Source: Escherichia phage vB_EcoS_AKFV33. From it: a DNA stretch of 64,000 bases. The notes under the pieces are model-generated. The model saw only the letters and a program-made list of their open reading frames with translations, did not search any database and was not told the DNA's origin. The number at the start of each line of letters is the position of its first letter. The stretch's first letter is position 1. The translations under genes were made by a program, and so were the position numbers. The DNA lies in the sequence record NC_017969.1. The stretch is one strand, 5' to 3'. This document shows, in pieces, positions 1,695 to 61,471 of the stretch.

Positions 1695-3359
1695 TTATGC
1701 AAAGAATTTACCGTTTTTAAAGTCAATCAAAGTGCGCTGACCGTTTGCATAGGTAATTAAATGCGTTTGCGTCCAGCTTGACGCGCCAACGTTGTAACCC
1801 ATGTCCAGACTACCAGCTACGCCAGCGGTGTATACGCCACCGTAAATGCTGGCGGTATGAGTGTGTCCAGTGTTCAGTTTACCCAATTTCTTAAACTGTT
1901 TCGGATTGCCACGGCTGCCGTTAATGCCGTTGTGACCGTGTACGCCGCATTCAATGCCTGCAATCTTGAAAGATTGATCAGTAGTCAGGAAAATGGCGTT
2001 AAATTCACAACCTGCAACCTTGCGCAGCGCATAATCTAGCACGTTGAAGGTGTCGTCTTTTTCTGCAATAGCTCCATAAATCGCGGCATTTAGGCGGTGA
2101 TATAGTTCGGCGTTGGCGGGATCGTCTTTGATGTTAGCATTACGATCATCCAGCCAACGGGATAACGCCAGATCATGGTTAGATTCAACAATGATTGTTT
2201 GAGAAAAATCGCGCTCCATTGACTCCAACACGCGCCCCGTATCGATAAGATCATCCAGAACTTTATCACGTCCGGCGGCATACTGTTTTGCTAGGAATAC
2301 ACCGGATGCGCGGTTATGATGATTGCGGGATGTAAAATCATGCACGTCATGCACAAACTGATATTTTGGTTTAAGAATATCAAGCAAGCTATTTTCGCCA
2401 GCCCATGACGCAACGGCACAATCATCATCCAGTTTTTCGGCGTGAATATCGCCATATTGCAAGCCTAAAACATGCCCCGACGTTTCATAGCATCCGGCAG
2501 GAGTAGCGCAAACATTCAGATCATAAAATACCCCGCTTTCATCCATCGTTTCAAGCTGGCGAACAAAAAACTCACCGTCTTCGTCGAACTCGACAACAAG
2601 CGCACCGAAATTATGCAATGCTTCGGCTTTTTGTCCTGCCTTCTGCTGAATGTAGTTTTTGAGCGTTGCCGTTCCAGTTGAATACATACGGCGCACTACT
2701 TCACCTTTTAAAGCTGGCACGCTTTCGGCGGTAATTTTAGCGTGACCAATTGCCAGACCTTCCAGATTAAGCGCCGTTGCAGTTTCAGCGAATCCAGAAA
2801 GCGGATAATCTGCGGTGGGCAAAACGTTAATTTCAGCCATGAAAGCAAAACGGCGGTTATTTAAAAACACGTTTTTGCTGCAAATATATTTATCGAATGC
2901 GGAATCATATTTTATCCCATCCGCGCCCTCGCCATTTTGGAATCCGTTTTTATTATAAATATACTTAGAAACAAGCAAATCAGCACCGATAAATTGGGCA
3001 TATTGCTCCAGACTTGCTAAAAAGTTTTTATGCGGGAAAGTATTATTCTGAATCGATGTAATAATAAAGCGTTTGCCCTGCTTTACTTCCCAGCTTTCCA
3101 CCGTGCTAGAAACAATCCCCGCCGCTTCTGGGCGCTCATCGTTTTTAATGGCTTTTGCTACTTTTGCCGCTTTTGGTTTGACTGGTTTATTTGCTTCCAG
3201 CCAATCACAAATGGCGGTGGAGTGTTTAGTAGTATCGTATACCGCTTTCGAAATATCGTCACAAACTTCCAATTTAGTGGCGCGCAGACGTTTACCGTAG
3301 AAATTGAAGTCAGCGGCCATTTTCAGGATAACGGTTTGTTTTTCTGCGGAAATAATCAT
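1695..3359 (-). CDS. A1: A1-like pre-early protein with C-terminal calcineurin-like metallophosphoesterase domain
   Basis: 554 aa ORF; phosphoesterase motifs (GDIH, HGHNG, GHTH) in C-terminal half; lies between dmp and A2 as in T5. Confidence 0.8.
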   Translation of the reverse strand: MIISAEKQTVILKMAADFNFYGKRLRATKLEVCDDISKAVYDTTKHSTAICDWLEANKPVKPKAAKVAKAIKNDERPEAAGIVSSTVESWEVKQGKRFIITSIQNNTFPHKNFLASLEQYAQFIGADLLVSKYIYNKNGFQNGEGADGIKYDSAFDKYICSKNVFLNNRRFAFMAEINVLPTADYPLSGFAETATALNLEGLAIGHAKITAESVPALKGEVVRRMYSTGTATLKNYIQQKAGQKAEALHNFGALVVEFDEDGEFFVRQLETMDESGVFYDLNVCATPAGCYETSGHVLGLQYGDIHAEKLDDDCAVASWAGENSLLDILKPKYQFVHDVHDFTSRNHHNRASGVFLAKQYAAGRDKVLDDLIDTGRVLESMERDFSQTIIVESNHDLALSRWLDDRNANIKDDPANAELYHRLNAAIYGAIAEKDDTFNVLDYALRKVAGCEFNAIFLTTDQSFKIAGIECGVHGHNGINGSRGNPKQFKKLGKLNTGHTHTASIYGGVYTAGVAGSLDMGYNVGASSWTQTHLITYANGQRTLIDFKNGKFFA

Positions 3360-3647: not shown

Positions 3648-3738
3648 TTTTTAAAACTCCTGATTTAAGGGAAGAAAATAACTATCGCTAAACAGTTATA
3701 TTATTGCCCCCTCACTAGAAGGGGGCAAGGTATAACTA

Positions 3739-4146
3739 TTATTCCCCTGCGGCTTGTTTTACTTCATCGGCAACGCCTAGCAGTTGCGCTACGGCGTCCA
3801 GCGTTTCAAGTTTTGCACTTTCCAGACTTGCCAGATCATCGGCGTCTTTGATAATGCCGGAATCAATAGCATGTTTAGCGATAACGCGCACATAGTGAGC
3901 TTTACGCACAGAGCTACCGCCGCCAACTTTACGCGGCTTATCGCTTTTTTGATAGGCTTTTGCACTGGTCAATTTTGACCGAACGGATACGGGAGAAGCC
4001 GCGCCTACTGCTTTTGCAATCTCTTTTAAACCGTCGCTATTTGCGAAATCTAAACCGTTTTCATTGATTAACTGCTGGTACATAGAAACAGCTTTCTGAG
4101 TGTTTTCTTCGTTCCATGCGAATTTTGCGGTTTTTGCGTTAGTCAT
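3739..4146 (-). CDS. A2: A2-like pre-early protein
   Basis: 135 aa ORF directly upstream of A1 in operon order; size and position match T5 A2. Confidence 0.65.
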   Translation of the reverse strand: MTNAKTAKFAWNEENTQKAVSMYQQLINENGLDFANSDGLKEIAKAVGAASPVSVRSKLTSAKAYQKSDKPRKVGGGSSVRKAHYVRVIAKHAIDSGIIKDADDLASLESAKLETLDAVAQLLGVADEVKQAAGE

Positions 4147-8679: not shown

Positions 8680-8875
8680 GACCGCGCTCGCGATGGTTAG
8701 CCTGCTAATGGTTAGGGTGTTACGTGTCGCCTTGTGTGATCGTTAGCGGGCTAACTAATTTTCAAGCCTCCTCCAATTTTGCCCTTGTTTTAGTATCTCC
8801 ACCAAAATTAAACGCGTTAGAATGCGATCTAGGACGTTTTAGCGGTATATTAGAATTATTCACTACATAGGAATA

Positions 8876-8911
8876 CTGTATATTTATACAGTAGGATAAG
8901 CTGTGGATAAG
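8876..8911. repeat. right arm of inverted repeat with DnaA box (CTGTATATTTATACAGTAGGATAAGCTGTGGATAAG)
   Basis: reverse complement of 5740-5786 region. Confidence 0.5.
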
Positions 8912-9002
8912 TCTGTTAATAACGCTTCAAAATGGCTAGGATTCTGTCAAATCAAATCGTGCTGTTAATAAGTCTGAGGATAACTTAAATAATAGTGTTT
9001 CT

Positions 9003-9175
9003 CACTTCCATTCTTAAATGCGAATCATTATCATTCGCATTTCACTATCTAACCGATAATCACTCCACTTTTTAAATGAGAATCATTTCACTTTTTGAAT
9101 AGCTCTCATTTCACTTCTTAAATGAGAATAATTATCATTTGCATTCCACTTCTTAAATGATAATGATTCTCATTC
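9003..9175. repeat. four direct copies of ~22-bp motif CACTTCTTAAATGAGAATCATT (some internally palindromic)
   Basis: copies near 9003, 9063, 9107, 9148. Confidence 0.5.
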
Positions 9176-9180
9176 AAAGT

Positions 9181-9200
9181 CGCAGGGCAATTGCCCTGCG
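9181..9200 (+). other. perfect 20-bp palindrome CGCAGGGCAATTGCCCTGCG (hairpin, terminator-like)
   Basis: followed by CTTTTG. Confidence 0.35.
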
Positions 9201-9205
9201 CTTTT

Positions 9206-9943
9206 GTGCAAATCCGACATTGCTCCACGGGTGTTACGTGCGGGCATGTATGTGCGAATCCGACAATTTTTGGTAGTGTGCAAATCCGACCCGAAAAATT
9301 TTTATAGTGTGCAAATCCGACAATGAATTTTCCCAAAAACTCCAGCAATCCGATGCTGCGCATCAATCCTGTGGAATTAGCTAGAATATGTGCAAATCCG
9401 ACATGGGTTTATTTGTGCGAAACCGACAAGATTTTTGTGACTTCGATTGGAGGGTGTGTGATTGTATGGGTTTGGGGAGAAGATAAGAGAGCGAGAGAAA
9501 TTTGGGAGGCTAGAAGGATGGGGCGCATGTTTGGTGCGGAGCACCTGATTTGCGGGGATTTTGGGGAAGAGTTGAGAAGATTTGGGTTAATTTGAGATAA
9601 GTGCAGAAAAAGTAAAATTTTATTAGCAAAATGGGGCAAAATAGCTTGACAAGTGAAAATTTCTGTGGCTCTAAAAACTCAGGCAATCATGGGCCTTCGG
9701 CCCGAAATAATGCTGCCATTTTCAGGAGATTATGTGTCCATGAAAACTTAGGCAATTGTGCAAATCCGACCAGTTTTTAAACTTATGTCAGTGTGCAAAT
9801 CCGACAGTAATTTCTGTAAATGTGTTTTCAAAAAATGTCTCCTAGAAATAACCGCCCTCCCAATAACCGCCCTGTATAGGAAAACCGGCCTAGGATATTT
9901 ATAGCAGGAGAGAAACTGCCCTATAATATGTGCAAATACGACA
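9206..9943 (+). repeat. array of nine direct 14-bp repeats GTGCAAATCCGACA (iteron-like)
   Basis: copies at about 9206, 9251, 9277, 9308, 9389, 9414, 9767, 9792, 9930, all in the same orientation, 0-2 mismatches. Confidence 0.6.
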
Positions 9944-10281
9944 GGATTTTCCTAGAAACTTAGGAGTCTACTAGAAAGTGTTGTGCCATCCTAGGAAGAG
10001 CGGTGGCAACAAGTGTATCATCTTGAATGTAAATTATGTGGTCAAAAGTTTTACCTTTAATTTAAGTATAAGATCCCCCAAAGATTGGAAGAGATGCTCC
10101 ACCCCTGGGATACGAATTGCGTGAGATGGTACAAAACTTCTTAAGATTTCCCTAGCCCTTCGACAAGCTACGGGGGAAATAGAAGTTTCCCATCCACTAT
10201 CCGTATCCGGGTGGATCTCTTTATTCTATGTTATTTCATAGAGTTATTATAACATGCAGAAATCATAACGTCAAGTAGAGT

Positions 10282-11172
10282 TTATTCATCGAACATGAGA
10301 TTTCCTTTCATCCCCATCTCCGCATACTCCATGAGTTCTTTGATGGATCTCACGGGGTAATCTACTTTACTAAAGTTATCATAGATCTTGCACGAACTCT
10401 CGTACAACTCGTTAGGTATCTGCAATTTGTTATCTGTTAGCTTCTCATAACGTGCAGAAGAATTTGTACCCTCAAATAGAACTGCGATAACTGCGGCGAT
10501 TTGTTTAGTAAGATCATCTGCTCCTAGAATTATTCTATTAATAGCAATCGTTACTTCATGCTTAGGTTTAGCAGGCGGAAGGATAGGTTTGAGATCCTTA
10601 GGTAAAGGTTCTGTTCCTAGGAATCCTTCTTTTGTGCGGAACCAATAATTATCTAGATCAGATATCGTCTTAGACTTATTCCAAATAGTAAAGCAGGGTT
10701 TATTTCCTTCACGATCTCTGTATTCACGAACTGGAAGGTAATGATCAGGGAATGAATTGAGTGCATCATGCATCGGTGAGCCTGTCTTTTTGAAGGACAA
10801 ACCATATAACTCATTATAATTCATAACTTCATCTTCGTAAACATGGAAATCTTTATATGCTGGAAGATTAAACCATTCCTGAAGTGAATGAACTGCAAAA
10901 CGTTGTGCCCAAGCATGCATCACTAGAACTCTGTATTCTTTTACTTCATCTTTTGGAGAAGTACCTTTAGCTGTTCTAGCTGAACGAATACAGAACATCT
11001 CAACAACACGTTTCTCATTTAAAGAGAGTTCAGAATAACAACGTTCATGGCAGCCTTCTAGCATTTCTAGAAGTTCACGTAGTTTCTCTACATCGACCGG
11101 TGGAAAAGGTCTTTCTTCAACTGCGAATTTACCAGTTACACCTTTTGGTTTTCTATTACTATAAAATCCCAT
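10282..11172 (-). CDS. hypothetical protein
   Basis: 296 aa ORF; translationally coupled (ATGA overlap) with upstream ORF. Confidence 0.55.
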   Translation of the reverse strand: MGFYSNRKPKGVTGKFAVEERPFPPVDVEKLRELLEMLEGCHERCYSELSLNEKRVVEMFCIRSARTAKGTSPKDEVKEYRVLVMHAWAQRFAVHSLQEWFNLPAYKDFHVYEDEVMNYNELYGLSFKKTGSPMHDALNSFPDHYLPVREYRDREGNKPCFTIWNKSKTISDLDNYWFRTKEGFLGTEPLPKDLKPILPPAKPKHEVTIAINRIILGADDLTKQIAAVIAVLFEGTNSSARYEKLTDNKLQIPNELYESSCKIYDNFSKVDYPVRSIKELMEYAEMGMKGNLMFDE

Positions 11173-11771
11173 TAATTACCTCTCTTATCTTCATTAATAG
11201 CAGCTCCCAACGCCTCCATAATAGCATCCTCTAAACTTCCATGTTTACTAGGATTATTAAAATGAATAGTACAAACAGAACTCCTAGAAACTCCAGCATC
11301 CACAGGTGCTACGCTTCGCATATCAGATTCAAAAGCTTCTTGAGTATGTTTCAACTGCACAGAAGGGCCGTAATCTTCACCAACTCGATAGGACTGATTA
11401 GATGACAGCGTACCACCACATGGAATATTGTGCAAATCCGATGATTTATTTAGCATTGCGATTGGTCCGGACGGCCATGAATCTCGAATAGTTACTGGAG
11501 CACTAGGACGGTTCACCTCAGTCTTCACGAGTTTATAACCAGCGTCTATTAGTGCATTAATCAGGTTATCAGCCGGGATGCGAGCCGTGCCAAAAATCTT
11601 ACGAGCATCTTCGAGCTTACTTTCAAGATCTTTACAGGCTTTAAGGTCGGTGTGTGCAAATGTTAGCTTCATAGATTTGAATTGTACAGTAGCAGTTAAA
11701 TCTTTAAAGCTATAATCCCATGTGTTCAGTTCATGGTCTGGTACTACTTGAATAGGTTGTTGTGTAAACAT
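11172..11771 (-). CDS. hypothetical protein
   Basis: 199 aa ORF; contains one copy of the GTGCAAATCCGA repeat within the coding sequence. Confidence 0.55.
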   Translation of the reverse strand: MFTQQPIQVVPDHELNTWDYSFKDLTATVQFKSMKLTFAHTDLKACKDLESKLEDARKIFGTARIPADNLINALIDAGYKLVKTEVNRPSAPVTIRDSWPSGPIAMLNKSSDLHNIPCGGTLSSNQSYRVGEDYGPSVQLKHTQEAFESDMRSVAPVDAGVSRSSVCTIHFNNPSKHGSLEDAIMEALGAAINEDKRGN

Positions 11772-21845: not shown

Positions 21846-22598
21846 TTATCCAACTAGTGGTTCTAGCTCTAAGTCACAGAAGTTATAAACTTCTAGTTTA
21901 AGGTTATTGATACCATCGAATTTATTAACTAATTCGTGAGTAATATATTTTGCAGGAATACCACTTTCAGATGGATGATCTGATTTAATAGTGAACTTCT
22001 GCTCAGCTGGTACTACATTTACTATCAAAGAATCCATATCTAAATGGTTTGTTTCTCTGAGTAGCTCTCCTTCATTGGGGAATCTAACATCTGTTATTAC
22101 GGCGACATCTGGGTCGTCTTTAGCGATGGATTGCTCCAGAATTATGAGCCAAATGCGTTCATGCACCAGCTGCCTTCCTAGCTCTGTTCCTATGAGCTGT
22201 AACATTTTTCTCGGAGAAATAAATAAGCTATAAAGACCATCTTCTTTATTCTCTGAGATAAGTTGTTGAGGATTAAGATACTTTTCCTCAAAAATAGGCC
22301 AAACGTACGAGAAGTCTTCAAACTTATCGATACCGTACTTAAACCACACATCTCTGGCTCGCTCCAATTGAGATTGTGTGACCGTAAACCATTGGTCAAT
22401 CTCTTTTCCCCTGCGCTCTCCTAGAAACTCTGGAGTTACACCGAGGATTACGGATGCAAGTTCATAAACGGGCTTAGCAAAACTGTAACGACGTGATAAA
22501 CACGTTGGATACGTGTCATTACACCAATCGATAATTAATTTTGCAACGGTATCTTTTCCCGAACCAGCTTCACCATGTAAACCGACTAATACTGACAT
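21846..22598 (-). CDS. dnk: deoxynucleoside monophosphate kinase
   Basis: 250 aa; P-loop GEAGSGKDT. Confidence 0.7.
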   Translation of the reverse strand: MSVLVGLHGEAGSGKDTVAKLIIDWCNDTYPTCLSRRYSFAKPVYELASVILGVTPEFLGERRGKEIDQWFTVTQSQLERARDVWFKYGIDKFEDFSYVWPIFEEKYLNPQQLISENKEDGLYSLFISPRKMLQLIGTELGRQLVHERIWLIILEQSIAKDDPDVAVITDVRFPNEGELLRETNHLDMDSLIVNVVPAEQKFTIKSDHPSESGIPAKYITHELVNKFDGINNLKLEVYNFCDLELEPLVG

Positions 22599-36720: not shown

Positions 36721-36816
36721 GTTTAATCTCCTAGTTAGTTTTATAATTACATTATATAGAAAAGCCCTGCGCTCTCCAGGAAACGCAGGGCTTACTTTAG
36801 ATGTTACATGCGGGTA

Positions 36817-43635: not shown

Positions 43636-44112
43636 TTACATCTCGGCAAGTTCTTGCTCGGTAATAACTGTGTTACACAATGCATCTACAGCTTCATTAC
43701 CACTAATACCAGAATGACCTTTAACCTTAATAAAGGTAGGGTTAGTATTATGAAAGTTGATATACTGCTGTGTTAATTTAAATGCTTCCTGCCAAAGTTC
43801 TAGATTAAGAGGGACTTCACCATCTGCTTTCTTCCAGCCTTTCCTTTGCCAAGAAAACATCCAACTTTCCATACCATTTTTGCAATAAGCAGAGTCAGTA
43901 TAGATAGCAATTGGTCTATTATCTTTTTTAACAGACCAACGTAGAGCTTCTACAATAGCTGTGAGTTCCATCTCATTATTTGTAGTTTTAGGATTATAAC
44001 CAGATTTAGAACCCAAACGATCGTCGTTATCATCATAGACAATAAAACCCCAAGCACCTGGACCTGGGTTAGACTTACAAGCACCATCTGTGTAAATGTG
44101 GAAAACCGACAT
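43636..44112 (-). CDS. rnh: ribonuclease H
   Basis: 158 aa; RNase H1 motifs (YTDGAC..GPG, TNNEMEL, HSG). Confidence 0.75.
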   Translation of the reverse strand: MSVFHIYTDGACKSNPGPGAWGFIVYDDNDDRLGSKSGYNPKTTNNEMELTAIVEALRWSVKKDNRPIAIYTDSAYCKNGMESWMFSWQRKGWKKADGEVPLNLELWQEAFKLTQQYINFHNTNPTFIKVKGHSGISGNEAVDALCNTVITEQELAEM

Positions 44113-58681: not shown

Positions 58682-61471
58682 GTGTTTTCTATCCTCCAAG
58701 GTCACGCCGGGTTTTCTCGTGATTTAGCAACAGGTATTTGGCGAGAAATCAAAGCGGAAGATTATACCTTTGCCAAACGATTCTCGAAAGAGCATCCAGA
58801 AGGTAAACCAGCTTCTATGCCCTTCAAATTTGATGTAATAGAAGAGCACGACCCACAAAGCCTTGCCGAAATGTTACCACTTATGAGACGTTTAACGTCT
58901 GACCCTCATATCGTTGCGGTACGAGGTCGATGTCTTGCACCTAAAAATAATGTGCGACGTAAGAAAGGTAACTTTAATGTATCCAACCCTAGCAATATTA
59001 TTGCTATGGACGTGGATGGTATCCTAGATACCGGTGGGTATGACAAGTTTAATCTTGTAGGTATGGCTCGACATATTATTAGGATGTTAAATAGTATTAG
59101 TGAGGATATGTTTCCTCTTGATGCAGGGTTTATCGCTCATGCATCGTCTTCGGCTGGGCTAAAACCAGGTATCCGAATGCACTTAATACTAGAATCTAAT
59201 GTTAAGGTAACTCAGGGTCAAATCAAATTCTTATTTACATCTATCAACGAAAGTAGTAGACAAAAGTATGGCTTTGATATTGCCGACTTAGCTTATTACT
59301 CTTCCGTACAGCTCCATTATTTTGCAGATCCGTTATTTACCGATGGTATAGTAGATCCGTTTAAAGCGGAGAGTAAGCCACGTCTGGTATATGTTAAAGG
59401 TTCGAAGGTAAATTTGCCCAATAATCTGGTTGACTATGAAACAACTAGAGGGGAATTTAAGGAAGAGTTTTATTCTTTACTTGATCAAATTAAAGGCAAA
59501 AAGATTGCTTCTGATAAAGTAGAAGAAACCATCAGCGAATTGGAAGAAGCCGAGGATGGGGTGTACTTGCGTATTATCCCCAAACTCTACCATAGAGCAT
59601 TAGAGGATGGTGTTGATTTCGCATGGCTAGAACGTGAGATTAAACCCGCTTTATCTGAATATATTGCAACTAAAGATAACAGTCGTAATATTCAAGATTA
59701 CTTTAATAACGGTCGTAAGCAGGCTCTCAAAGCGTTTGTTAATAATTCTAAACGTGAGATCCCATTAAATCTGAAGGGTGTTCCACTCAAGAAATTAGAA
59801 GTGGATTCTCCACCAGAAGTTCCGTACCTGAAGATTAACATTGTGCCTCCAAAAGGCCATATAACATTTGTTAAGGCAAGTCTTGGTACTGGTAAGACTA
59901 CGGCAGTAACTAAATGGCTGGACGCAGGTGTTCTTCCTGGCAACTTTTTAGCAGTTACAAATACTAGAGCACTGGTATCTTCAAACGCTAAGAAATTTAG
60001 CGCAGGACAATATGATAAGTCTGTAGATATGCTCAACTTTAAACGTGGAGCTATTGATCGTATGTCTACAACTATCCACTCTTTGCATAAGTTCAAAAGT
60101 TTTATTGGTCAAATAGATACCATTTTTATTGATGAATGTGATGCTGTAATGAATGATCTATTATTCGCACCTGTTGTTAAGCAACGTCGCGAATGTATTC
60201 AAGTTCTACGTGACATCCTCATGACAGCTAAAACTGTAATTCTATCTGATGGGGATATTAGTGCAGAAACAATTGAAGCATATGGTTCTCTAATTGATTT
60301 TGATAAACCAGTAGCATTTTATAATCATCACCGTAAGATGCTGTCAAAAGCTCATGCTTATGAGTTCCCGGATGAATCCAGTATTTGGGTTGCACTTCAG
60401 ACCTCTCTAGAGATGGGTGAGAAATCTATCCTAGTATCTGATTGTGGGCCGGATGAACTGAATGAGAAGGGCATGGCGTTGCGTCGTAATACGGGTGCGT
60501 TAGTTAAGGAAATCCACTCAAACTCTACGTCTGATGTAGATATTCGACGTATTCTGGATTACACAACTAATGAGCTAATTGACCAACAAATTGATTGCTT
60601 ATTATGTAGTCCATCCGTAACTAGTGGTGTTGACTTCAACTATTTTGATAACGTATTCGTTATTACTAGAACCAGCAACCAAGCGCCAAACATGCGTTTC
60701 CAAGCAATCAGGCGCGACCGTGGTGCTCAGAACATTTATTATTTTATTGATAAATCTACGAGTGGATTCTCCGCAGGTTCTGAACAATATAATATTGATG
60801 AGGGTTGGCTGGAGTTAGCACAGCAATTATACGCACGTCGTAGGGAGCTGGAATCTAGGAATTATACTAGTACCTTACGTTATTACTTGCTTGATCAGGG
60901 TGCAACTATTGATATTTTCAGTGAAAGCTGGGGAACTATCGAAGGTGCAGGCAAAGAGTATACAGAAGAGCGAATCAAAGCCATTTTGTATTCAACTCCT
61001 GATTATTGCGCTCCACGTCATGCGGATGCGTATGAAGCTAAACTACTTCTTGTTCGCTACTATCATCTTGAGTCTATTAAAGATGTAACAGTTGAGCATG
61101 TTGAACAATATATCAAGGATAAACCTAATGATCGGGCTGCATTCTTCCATAAAATGCACGAGATGTTCTGGGAAGATATTAAGAAGTGTTCAAATGTCAC
61201 TATCAAACCATTCATAGAAGCTCTGAAAGGTAAGAAGAAAGATTTCTTCCTTAAAACAGGTCAGAGTGCTAACCCAAAATATGCCAGAATGTATCTTGGT
61301 ATGATGGGTATTGGTAAAGATATGAACACGGAGAATATTGTAGACTGGTACAGAACTTATTGTAAAATCGAGTGTATGCCAATCCCATATAAGTTTATGA
61401 CTGATGAGGAGAAACATATGCATGATGAAGCAATGGCAGAGCTAGGTGCTAGAAATGACAGTGAAGAATAA
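58682..61471 (+). CDS. large SF2-type helicase/ATPase; putative replication origin-binding/initiator helicase
   Basis: 929 aa, GTG start with SD AGGAG; Walker A ASLGTGKTT and DExD-type FIDECD. Confidence 0.7.
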   Translation: MFSILQGHAGFSRDLATGIWREIKAEDYTFAKRFSKEHPEGKPASMPFKFDVIEEHDPQSLAEMLPLMRRLTSDPHIVAVRGRCLAPKNNVRRKKGNFNVSNPSNIIAMDVDGILDTGGYDKFNLVGMARHIIRMLNSISEDMFPLDAGFIAHASSSAGLKPGIRMHLILESNVKVTQGQIKFLFTSINESSRQKYGFDIADLAYYSSVQLHYFADPLFTDGIVDPFKAESKPRLVYVKGSKVNLPNNLVDYETTRGEFKEEFYSLLDQIKGKKIASDKVEETISELEEAEDGVYLRIIPKLYHRALEDGVDFAWLEREIKPALSEYIATKDNSRNIQDYFNNGRKQALKAFVNNSKREIPLNLKGVPLKKLEVDSPPEVPYLKINIVPPKGHITFVKASLGTGKTTAVTKWLDAGVLPGNFLAVTNTRALVSSNAKKFSAGQYDKSVDMLNFKRGAIDRMSTTIHSLHKFKSFIGQIDTIFIDECDAVMNDLLFAPVVKQRRECIQVLRDILMTAKTVILSDGDISAETIEAYGSLIDFDKPVAFYNHHRKMLSKAHAYEFPDESSIWVALQTSLEMGEKSILVSDCGPDELNEKGMALRRNTGALVKEIHSNSTSDVDIRRILDYTTNELIDQQIDCLLCSPSVTSGVDFNYFDNVFVITRTSNQAPNMRFQAIRRDRGAQNIYYFIDKSTSGFSAGSEQYNIDEGWLELAQQLYARRRELESRNYTSTLRYYLLDQGATIDIFSESWGTIEGAGKEYTEERIKAILYSTPDYCAPRHADAYEAKLLLVRYYHLESIKDVTVEHVEQYIKDKPNDRAAFFHKMHEMFWEDIKKCSNVTIKPFIEALKGKKKDFFLKTGQSANPKYARMYLGMMGIGKDMNTENIVDWYRTYCKIECMPIPYKFMTDEEKHMHDEAMAELGARNDSEE

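What the first reader, a model, noticed from the sequence alone, without database searches (positions are those of the whole stretch)
9206..9943. Array of nine 14-bp direct repeats (GTGCAAATCCGACA), iteron-like, next to DnaA boxes
Nine same-orientation copies with at most 2 mismatches are spread irregularly over ~740 bp of non-coding DNA at the end of the pre-early region, several immediately after -10-like hexamers (TATAAT, TAGAAT, TATAGT). This is not CRISPR-like. Direct repeats combined with nearby DnaA boxes resemble origin iterons or a protein-binding array that could relate to the DNA-injection stop or transcription control. One further copy lies inside the CDS at 11172-11771.
Basis: seen in the sequence. 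Interest (0 to 1): 0.6.

Follow-up and report, generated by a model that had tools for sequence, protein, structure and literature searches.

The report
Phage T5 "DRD" repeat array
The nine repeats are real, but they are the already annotated "direct repeat D" copies of phage T5's injection-stop and terminal-repeat-end region; their function is still unknown, and they look like binding sites for a phage DNA-binding protein rather than origin iterons or promoters.

Summary
Nine same-strand copies of (T)GTGCAAATCCGACA lie at 9206-9943, plus a tenth at 11430 (11 hits against 0.2 expected). The window is the left end of a T5-like phage. The array is orthologous, copy for copy and spacing for spacing, to "direct repeat D copy 1-9" annotated in T5 (AY587007) and named by Davison, who assigns it no function. 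The feature is therefore already known.

New here: the motif is conserved across Demerecviridae (Klebsiella, Pantoea, Serratia, Pectobacterium and Vibrio phages) while the flanking DNA diverges. It always sits in one ordered module: DnaA boxes, GCGC nick site, left cluster, G-rich block, terminal-repeat end, right cluster. In T5, BF23 and SPC35 the repeat end (window 9671|9672) falls between copies 6 and 7. T5 has further copies inside two genes. The -10-like hexamers are not conserved, and there is no AT-rich unwinding element.

My best reading, at modest confidence, is a binding array for the essential pre-early DNA-binding protein A2. A2 models as a Myb/GcrA-like three-helix domain whose likely recognition helix is invariant wherever the motif is. 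The array would act at the first-to-second-step DNA transfer point. Terminase binding, origin binding or a host factor remain possible.

The parts
9206..9219 (+). DRD copy 1 (GTGCAAATCCGACA), 4 nt right of the GCGC nick site
   Evidence: orthologous to T5 'direct repeat D copy 1'
9252..9265 (+). DRD copy 2 (GTGCGAATCCGACA)
9278..9291 (+). DRD copy 3 (GTGCAAATCCGACC)
9309..9322 (+). DRD copy 4
9390..9403 (+). DRD copy 5
9415..9428 (+). DRD copy 6 (GTGCGAAACCGACA); last copy inside the terminal repeat
9758..9771 (+). DRD copy 7; first copy in unique DNA right of the terminal repeat
9793..9806 (+). DRD copy 8
9930..9943 (+). DRD copy 9 (GTGCAAATACGACA); least conserved copy among close relatives
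11430..11443 (+). Tenth copy (GTGCAAATCCGATG) inside the minus-strand T5.019-like CDS (11172-11771). It is an island of conservation flanked by in-frame indels in 15 relatives.
9181..9201 (.). Palindrome/terminator-like hairpin plus CCCTGCGC, the equivalent of the T5 major 7.9% single-strand nick site. The nick is predicted on the minus strand between 9201 and 9202. The second half-motif GTTACGTGCG is at 9233-9242.
   Evidence: consensus R/GCGCRGG quoted in PMC3517423
9430..9640 (+). G-rich, strongly G-skewed block (TTTGGGG-type repeats; DRA in T5) between the left cluster and the repeat end
   Evidence: (family D8)
9646..9677 (+). Conserved core TTGACAAGTGAAAATTTCTGTGGCTC|TAAAAA. The right end of the long terminal repeat, and so of the virion DNA, maps to 9671|9672.
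   Evidence: This is the only stretch that blastn still detects in Klebsiella and Pantoea phages.
8902..8910 (-). Nearest consensus DnaA box (TTATCCACA), part of the IRD'/IRC' element that Davison proposes as the injection stop signal
3739..4146 (-). Gene A2 (135 aa), the essential pre-early DNA-binding protein and candidate reader of the repeat (inferred, not shown)
   Evidence: 10.64898/2026.04.02.716235

Best explanation
The nine repeats are the T5 'DRD' repeats. They form an array of independent, same-orientation binding sites for one sequence-specific phage-encoded DNA-binding protein. The array spans the place where first-step DNA transfer halts, the 7.9% nick and the inner end of the long terminal repeat.

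My preferred mechanism is inference, not demonstration. A2 is made from the DNA that has already entered. It would then bind the DRD sites as they become accessible at the entry point. [quoted passage not shown] The scattered extra copies (11430; the pair in gene D13 of T5) would be further A2 sites.

Shown here: the array, its family-wide conservation, its fixed place in the module, and A2's fold and conservation pattern. Inferred: that A2 binds it, and what that binding does.
For: (1) Identity with the known feature. T5 AY587007 annotates 'direct repeat D copy 1-9' with spacings 46, 26, 31, 81, 25, 344, 35, 137. The window has 46, 26, 31, 81, 25, 343, 35, 137.

(2) Selection on the motif itself. 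The same core GTGCAAATCCGA occurs in left and right clusters in Klebsiella Roth39, Pantoea AAS21, an IMG/VR phage, Serratia Kamaji, Pectobacterium DU_PP_V, a metagenomic relative and Vibrio Chester, whose A1 is only 33% identical. Yet blastn aligns only about 75-90 bp of the flanking DNA in Klebsiella and Pantoea phages.

(3) Site geometry. The unit is 15 nt and asymmetric. Centre-to-centre distances go down to 15-17 bp and are not phased. This fits small monomeric reading heads rather than a ring or a phased wrap.

(4) Position. The array lies at 7.9-8.6% of the genome, where T5 DNA transfer pauses.

(6) Co-variation. The putative recognition helix VRSKL..YQK is invariant or nearly so from E. 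coli to Vibrio phages, all of which keep the motif. In Aeromonas phage TS3 the A2 homologue is too diverged for tblastn (VRQKL..YIK, C-terminal motif lost), and the array motif has also changed, to GTA[CGA]NAAWYYGAYR. By contrast, the small-terminase N-terminal HTH differs between T5, Kamaji and Chester although their motif is the same.

Against: Copies 7-9, the copy at 11430 and the D13 pair at 64.8% of T5 lie beyond the DNA that is inside the cell when A2 is made. A simple 'restart' role does not require them.

The array's tight association with the terminal-repeat end is not predicted by the A2 model and fits a packaging role better. The N-terminal domain of the UL9-like OBP was not examined in detail.
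Confidence: 0.33

Rival explanations
1. Packaging or end-processing signal. The repeats are recognition sites for the terminase (small subunit T5.156 or a partner). They position cleavage at the inner end of the terminal repeat in the concatemer, like lambda cosB R sites, P1 pac hexamers or SPP1 pacL/pacR flanking the cut (those comparisons are from memory).
For: In T5, BF23 (PhageTerm) and SPC35 the repeat and virion end maps to the same sequence, between copies 6 and 7. In five lineages the clusters flank the conserved TTGAC...GTGGCTC core. In Vibrio Chester the recorded repeat end is about 45 bp left of copy 1, so it is still adjacent. T5.156 is a PHROG 'terminase small subunit' and was once labelled putative sciB, a nick-related late gene. 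The 7.9% nick is 4 nt from copy 1.
Against: The small-terminase N-terminal HTH region is not conserved between phages that share the identical motif. There are no copies at the other (left) repeat boundary. The cut position relative to the array is not fixed: T5 cuts inside the array and Chester outside it. Extra copies inside T5.019 and D13 are unexpected for a pac site. An array spanning 740 bp is long for a terminase site.
Confidence: 0.22
2. Cis-acting injection stop, or barrier bound by a conserved host protein. The array, alone or with the DnaA boxes, is what arrests DNA entry at about 8%, for example by binding a membrane-associated or nucleoid host factor.
For: The position is at the mapped stop. 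[quoted passage not shown] The motif is almost invariant across phages of Escherichia, Klebsiella, Serratia, Pectobacterium and Vibrio, which a conserved host reader would explain simply. Reb1/Tus-type polar barriers use asymmetric sites (the analogy is from memory).
Against: I could match no known enterobacterial factor to the motif (from memory only). The scan of 185,579 bacterial genomes for paired copies found only a misbinned phage contig and unrelated coding repeats. Davison places the stop to the left, in IRD'/DRE. The Aeromonas phage has a changed motif.
Confidence: 0.13
3. Replication-origin iterons read by the phage UL9-like origin-binding helicase (window 58682-61471).
For: There are direct repeats plus DnaA boxes within 300 bp. 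The phage encodes a 929-aa 'replication origin binding' helicase (PHROG 3712; Pfam Herpes_ori_bp hit) with a roughly 380-aa N-terminal domain of unknown role. A tandem pair of the motif sits inside D13 of T5, as lambda's iterons sit inside gene O (the lambda comparison is from memory).
Against: Homology to UL9 covers only the helicase motifs (aa 389-533), not the UL9 DNA-binding domain. Spacing is irregular, from 25 to 343 bp. There is no AT-rich block. According to Davison's summary of the mapping literature, origins lie near the genome centre and replication genes are not expressed in the first step. In Chester the array is not in the terminal repeat.
Confidence: 0.1
4. Promoters or starts of short transcripts beginning GUGCAAAUCCGACA, or an RNA-level motif.
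For: Three copies in this window follow TAGAAT, TATAAT or TATAGT. One full sigma-70-like match ends at 9927, just before copy 9.
Against: Upstream positions carry almost no information across lineages. Eight of nine copies lack a promoter match. There is no downstream ORF and no significant Rfam hit. Copies also occur inside genes on either coding strand.
Confidence: 0.03
5. Determinant of the T5 single-strand nicks.
For: Copy 1 lies between the two halves of the 7.9% nick motif in at least five lineages. The D13 pair lies at 64.83% of T5, near the 64.8% nick.
Against: The 18.5% and 32.6% nick sites have the same bipartite motif but no DRD. The predicted 64.8% nick site is 363 bp from the D13 pair. 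Eight of the nine copies have no GCGC next to them.
Confidence: 0.03

Closest known systems
T5 'direct repeat D' (DRD) copies 1-9 in Repeat Region 3 / the iss region (GenBank AY587007; Davison, bioRxiv 10.1101/866236)
   Same: Same motif, same number of copies, same order and spacing, same position relative to palindrome J, the 7.9% nick and the end of the left terminal repeat.
   Different: Only point differences between copies. This phage is about 88-92% identical to database relatives in this region. The literature assigns no function.
Terminase recognition arrays flanking a cut site (lambda cosB R1-R3, P1 pac hexamers 4+3, SPP1 pacL/pacR). Recalled from memory.
   Same: Short repeated protein sites lie on both sides of the point where virion DNA ends are made.
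   Different: The DRD array is much longer (740 bp) and all copies share one orientation. The cut position relative to the array varies between lineages. The candidate TerS DNA-binding region is not conserved with the motif.
Origin iterons (lambda ori, plasmid Rep iterons). Recalled from memory.
   Same: Direct repeats of 14-20 bp in one orientation. DnaA boxes in the neighbourhood. One extra site set lies inside a coding gene.
   Different: Spacing is irregular and wide. There is no adjacent AT-rich unwinding element. No initiator gene is adjacent. T5 origins are reported elsewhere.
Myb/GcrA-type monomeric readers of asymmetric repeats (Rap1 at telomeric repeats, Reb1-Ter barrier, GcrA)
   Same: The A2 model's N-terminal domain superposes on these folds. 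They read asymmetric sites that are often arrayed in one orientation.
T7 short repeat arrays SRL/SRR next to its terminal repeat. Recalled from memory.
   Same: Arrays of short direct repeats abut the terminal repetition of a phage with direct terminal repeats, and their function is poorly understood.
   Different: Unrelated sequence, 7-bp units, a much shorter repeat (160 bp) and a different phage family.

Membership tests
T5 DRD repeats (Repeat Region 3 / iss region of Tequintavirus-like phages) | Motif (T)GTGCAAATCCGACA, nine copies, one orientation | tested here: met
T5 DRD repeats (Repeat Region 3 / iss region of Tequintavirus-like phages) | Same inter-copy spacing and order as T5 copies 1-9 | tested here: met
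   T5 46, 26, 31, 81, 25, 344, 35, 137 against window 46, 26, 31, 81, 25, 343, 35, 137
T5 DRD repeats (Repeat Region 3 / iss region of Tequintavirus-like phages) | Placed after palindrome J and the 7.9% nick site, straddling the end of the left terminal repeat | tested here: met
Replication-origin iterons | Closely and regularly spaced repeats next to an AT-rich unwinding element | tested here: not met
   Spacing 25-343 bp. GC 0.38-0.46 across and beside the array, not below neighbouring DNA.
Replication-origin iterons | Cognate initiator with a DNA-binding domain that reads the repeat | tested here: inconclusive
   A UL9-like helicase is present, but homology covers helicase motifs only. Its N-terminal domain was not analysed.
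Replication-origin iterons | Replication starts there | not testable with these tools
   Davison's summary of three mapping papers puts origins near the genome centre. The primary papers are not held.
Sigma-70 promoters / short transcripts | -35 and -10 hexamers at correct spacing upstream of each copy, conserved in relatives | tested here: not met
   One of nine copies by the scan. About 0-0.3 bits of information upstream of position -1, apart from a weak G at -6 (0.7 bits).
Terminase recognition site (pac/cos type) | Lies at the site where virion DNA ends are generated | tested here: met
   The repeat end is between copies 6 and 7 in T5, BF23 and SPC35 and adjacent to copy 1 in Chester.
Terminase recognition site (pac/cos type) | Bound by the small terminase subunit | not testable with these tools
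   Indirect only: the TerS N-terminal HTH is not conserved among phages with the identical motif, which argues weakly against it.
CRISPR array | Regularly spaced repeats with unique spacers of uniform length | tested here: not met
   Spacing 25-343 bp, repeat only 14-15 nt.
Known structured RNA (Rfam) | Match at or near a family's gathering score | tested here: not met
   Best hit is 24 bits against a gathering score of 90 (PrrF, E 0.25), and it lies left of the array.

The most novel reading that the evidence does not exclude
The DRD array is the specific DNA target of A2, the essential Myb/GcrA-like pre-early protein. A2 (with A1) loading on successive same-orientation sites across the arrest point would be the long-sought mechanism that restarts, ratchets or licenses second-step transfer of T5 DNA. 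The module of nick site, array and repeat end would be a family-wide 'DNA entry and end control' unit of Demerecviridae.
Probability: 0.3. Interest if true: 0.75.

Novelty: already known. Interest (0 to 1): 0.35.

Why it matters
How T5 stops DNA entry at 8% and restarts it with A1 and A2 has been open since the 1960s. An April 2026 preprint still calls A2's role 'as yet unknown', and the 2020 review gives no role to these repeats.

The repeats themselves are not new. Three results here turn a catalogue entry into a simple experiment, which is A2 binding to a 15-bp site:
- The 15-nt motif is kept from E. coli to Vibrio phages while the surrounding DNA is replaced.
- It sits in a fixed module with the nick site and the terminal-repeat end.
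- A2 has a matching fold and conservation pattern.

If terminase reads the array instead, that would define the packaging signal of long-terminal-repeat phages, which is also unknown.

Tried and rejected
(1) Promoter reading. The consensus scan and the cross-lineage information profile reject it.

(2) RNA family. The Rfam E-value scan gave only sub-threshold noise.

(3) UL9 box resemblance. The reverse complement of the G-variant copies contains ATTCGCAC, close to the HSV UL9 box GTTCGCAC (recalled from memory). However, the phage helicase matches UL9 only in helicase motifs, not its DNA-binding domain, so I treat this as coincidence.

(4) Nick determinant. Rejected because the other major nick sites share a bipartite motif without any DRD.

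(5) Fur-box idea for the neighbouring DRC/DRE repeats. There is no match with up to 3 mismatches there; the only hits are at 225-249 inside dmp.

(6) Host regulon. The bacterial-genome scan for paired copies found nothing relevant.

(7) Discriminating the candidate readers by phyletic distribution. A2, TerS and the origin-binding helicase have nearly the same distribution (about 900 records each), so this failed. Shewanella phage 1/4 has an A1-like gene in another genomic context and no motif within the 25 kb examined.

(8) Literature. Davison 2015, Zivanovic 2014 and Rhoades 1984 are not held. No paper that I could search or read assigns a function or a binding protein to DRD.

(9) Within-genus conservation is uninformative: 90% identity inside the repeats against 83% outside.

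Full report
**What is there**

The window is the left end of a T5-like phage (Demerecviridae). It is about 88-92% identical to database relatives across 8800-10400. Position 1 lies within a few bases of the T5 left terminus. The pre-early genes are present: dmp (121-855), A1 (1695-3359) and A2 (3739-4146), all on the minus strand.

The reported repeat is real. GTGCAAATCCGACA with up to 2 mismatches occurs 11 times, all on the + strand, against 0.2 expected. Nine copies lie at 9206-9943 and a tenth at 11430. An information profile over 61 copies from seven phages shows that the unit is 15 nt, T+GTGCAAATCCGAYR. Outside it there is only a weak G at -6 and a weak T-run downstream.

**It is a known feature**

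The T5 record AY587007 annotates 'direct repeat D copy 1' to 'copy 9' with the same inter-copy distances as this window. It also annotates palindrome J and 'major single-stranded nick 1, 7.9%' immediately to the left of copy 1. The end of the left terminal repeat lies between copies 6 and 7.

[quoted passage not shown] He assigns them no function and favours the IRD'-spacer-IRC' element, with its DnaA boxes, as the injection stop signal. AY543070 labels a broad 1-kb stretch 'injection stop signal'. [quoted passage not shown] As a sequence feature, then, this is already known, and its function is open.

**Position relative to the DNA ends**

T5, BF23 (ends determined with PhageTerm, PMC10644984) and SPC35 all place the right end of the terminal repeat at the same sequence...TTGACAAGTGAAAATTTCTGTGG(A/C)TC|TAAAAACT. 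The last bases of the T5 record are that sequence. In the window this is 9671|9672, which is 243 bp after copy 6 and 87 bp before copy 7. Copies 1-6 are therefore duplicated in the right terminal repeat (seen in T5), and copies 7-9 are unique.

**Conservation beyond close relatives**

In Klebsiella phage Roth39 and Pantoea phage AAS21, blastn detects only the roughly 75-90 bp core around the repeat end. Both nevertheless carry the same motif in a left cluster of 5 copies and a right cluster of 3-4 copies flanking that core.

The same holds for several other phages:
- an IMG/VR phage, with 6 left and 4 right copies;
- Serratia phage Kamaji;
- Pectobacterium phage DU_PP_V and a metagenomic relative.

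The order of elements is constant: DnaA boxes, CCTGCGC nick site, left cluster, G-rich block, TTGAC...GTGGCTC core, right cluster.

Vibrio phage Chester, whose A1 is only 33% identical, also has CCTGCGC followed by GTGCAAATCCGACA copies and GGTGCAAATTCTA variants. There, however, the recorded terminal-repeat end lies about 45 bp to the left of copy 1, after a different TAGAAGTCT array. In Aeromonas phage TS3 the array is present but the motif has drifted to GTA[CGA]NAAWYYGAYR.

Among close relatives the whole region is conserved, so the contrast is small: 90% identity inside the repeats against 83% outside.

**Other copies**

A whole-genome scan of T5 finds the motif, always on the + strand, in four places:
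- the array;
- the right-repeat copies of DRD1-6;
- one site inside T5.019;
- a tandem pair 15 bp apart inside D13, at 64.83% of the genome.

The T5.019 site (window 11430) is an island of identity next to in-frame indels in 15 relatives. The D13 pair is kept in Eps7, JNwz02 and phiR2-01 but is absent from a Klebsiella phage.

**What it is not**

Promoters:
- Only one copy has a sigma-70-like match.
- The upstream hexamers are not conserved.
- There is no ORF or Rfam RNA downstream.

Origin iterons:
- Spacing is irregular.
- There is no AT-rich block.
- Davison's summary puts T5 origins near the genome centre.
- The UL9-like helicase of the phage is homologous to UL9 only in its helicase motifs.

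Nick determinants:
- All three CCYGCGCY sites in the window (9195, 22410, 36766) and the T5 major nick sites share a second element, (A/G)TTACRNRTG, about 31-33 nt downstream.
- Only the first of these sites contains a DRD.

A host regulon: a scan of 185,579 bacterial genomes for paired copies returned only a misbinned phage contig and unrelated repeats.

**Who reads it**

Three phage proteins are plausible readers, and their phyletic distributions are nearly identical.

Small terminase (T5.156, PHROG 3802, once labelled putative sciB). It fits the location at the DNA end. However, its N-terminal HTH is not conserved between T5, Kamaji and Chester, which share the motif.

The N-terminal domain of the origin-binding helicase was not examined beyond percent identity.

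**Verdict**

My best-supported mechanism is a binding array for a phage protein, most likely A2, acting where first-step transfer pauses (confidence about 0.33). The main rival is a terminase or end-processing role (about 0.22). Then come a host-factor or passive stop (about 0.13) and origin iterons (about 0.10). None of these is demonstrated, and a single EMSA series would separate them.

Noticed in passing
L128:28936-28964 (T5 AY543070 78936-78964, outside the window): A tandem pair of the same motif (GTGCAAATCCTACA-G-GTGCAAATCCGACA, + strand) sits inside the SbcC-like gene D13, at 64.83% of the T5 genome. It encodes VQILQVQIRQ. It is conserved in Eps7, JNwz02 and phiR2-01 and absent in Klebsiella phage VAC35. 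It lies close to the classical 64.8% nick, but 363 bp from the predicted nick site.
   Followed up: partly
window 11430-11443: The tenth copy lies inside the minus-strand T5.019-like gene (phrog_5271, function unknown). It is an island of identity (GGAACATTGTGCAWATCCGA) flanked by in-frame indels of 3-15 nt in 15 relatives. In BF23 it is degenerate.
   Followed up: partly
window 9195-9242, 22410-22452, 36766-36808: All three CCYGCGCY sites in the window, which are the equivalents of the T5 7.9%, 18.5% and 32.6% major nick sites, are followed at +31/32 by (A/G)TTAC(G/A)N(G/C)(C/A)(G/T)G. The T5 nick sites show the same pattern, and the 7.9% sites of Roth39, AAS21, Kamaji and TS3 carry the same second half. 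This suggests a bipartite nick-recognition motif, which could explain why the 7-nt consensus alone is insufficient (a point raised in PMC3517423).
   Followed up: partly
window 44098-44111: A strong PWM hit (TGTGGAAAACCGACA, 20.4 bits, + strand) overlaps the start codon of the minus-strand ORF 43636-44112 and a DnaA-like box (TTTTCCACA). It is not present at the equivalent place in T5. It could be chance.
   Followed up: no
L137:1216-1545 and L136:1-330 (Vibrio phage Chester NC_055830): The last 120 bp or so of Chester's terminal repeat is a different direct-repeat array (GATGGMTAGAAGTCT, 6-7 copies). The recorded repeat end lies just left of the GCGC site and the DRD copies, so there the DRD copies are outside the repeat. 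The accuracy of the ends in this record was not verified.
   Followed up: partly
L146:9400-9800 (Aeromonas phage TS3 OP820700): The module is present (DnaA box, CCGGCGCC, GTTACGAGTG), but the repeat has drifted to GTACTAAACCGACA / GTAGAAATTCGACA types. The A2 homologue (3657-4091) is also strongly diverged.
   Followed up: partly
window 9847-9891: AATAACCGCCCTCC-CAATAACCGCCCTG-TATAGGAAAACCGGCC lies between copies 8 and 9. The same AATAACCGCCCT / AACCGGCC elements recur at the same place in AAS21, Kamaji, the IMG/VR phage and T5. This is a second conserved element of unknown role.
   Followed up: no
window 9430-9640: A G-rich block with GC skew up to +0.65 (TTTGGGGAG-type repeats; T5 'direct repeat A' copies) lies between the left cluster and the repeat end. 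It is conserved in kind, though not in sequence, in all lineages examined.
   Followed up: no
T5 107934-108416 (T5.156; outside the window) and M62847.1: The predicted small terminase subunit of T5 (PHROG 3802) is the ORF whose 5' end was labelled 'putative sciB' (single-chain-interruption gene) in a 1991 record. A Serratia phage record annotates a 'nicking endonuclease' between TerL and portal. This suggests a link between nicking and the packaging genes.
   Followed up: no
window 9002-9178 and 225-249: The DRC/DRE repeats (TTAAATGAGAATCATT...) look Fur-box-like by eye and give a weak PrrF Rfam hit (24 bits, E 0.25). No match to the Fur consensus with up to 3 mismatches occurs there. The only such matches are at 225-249, inside dmp.
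   Followed up: partly
L126 (Salmonella phage Kenya-K36 OQ291033): Its annotated 'DTR' ends about 480 bp right of copy 8, at a sequence unrelated to the T5/BF23/SPC35 end. This is probably an assembly-derived boundary.
   Followed up: no
L138 (SABI01000336.1, 'Spirochaetia bacterium' MAG): This 2.6-kb contig is T5-like phage DNA (DRD7-8 region and downstream) binned into a bacterial MAG.
   Followed up: no
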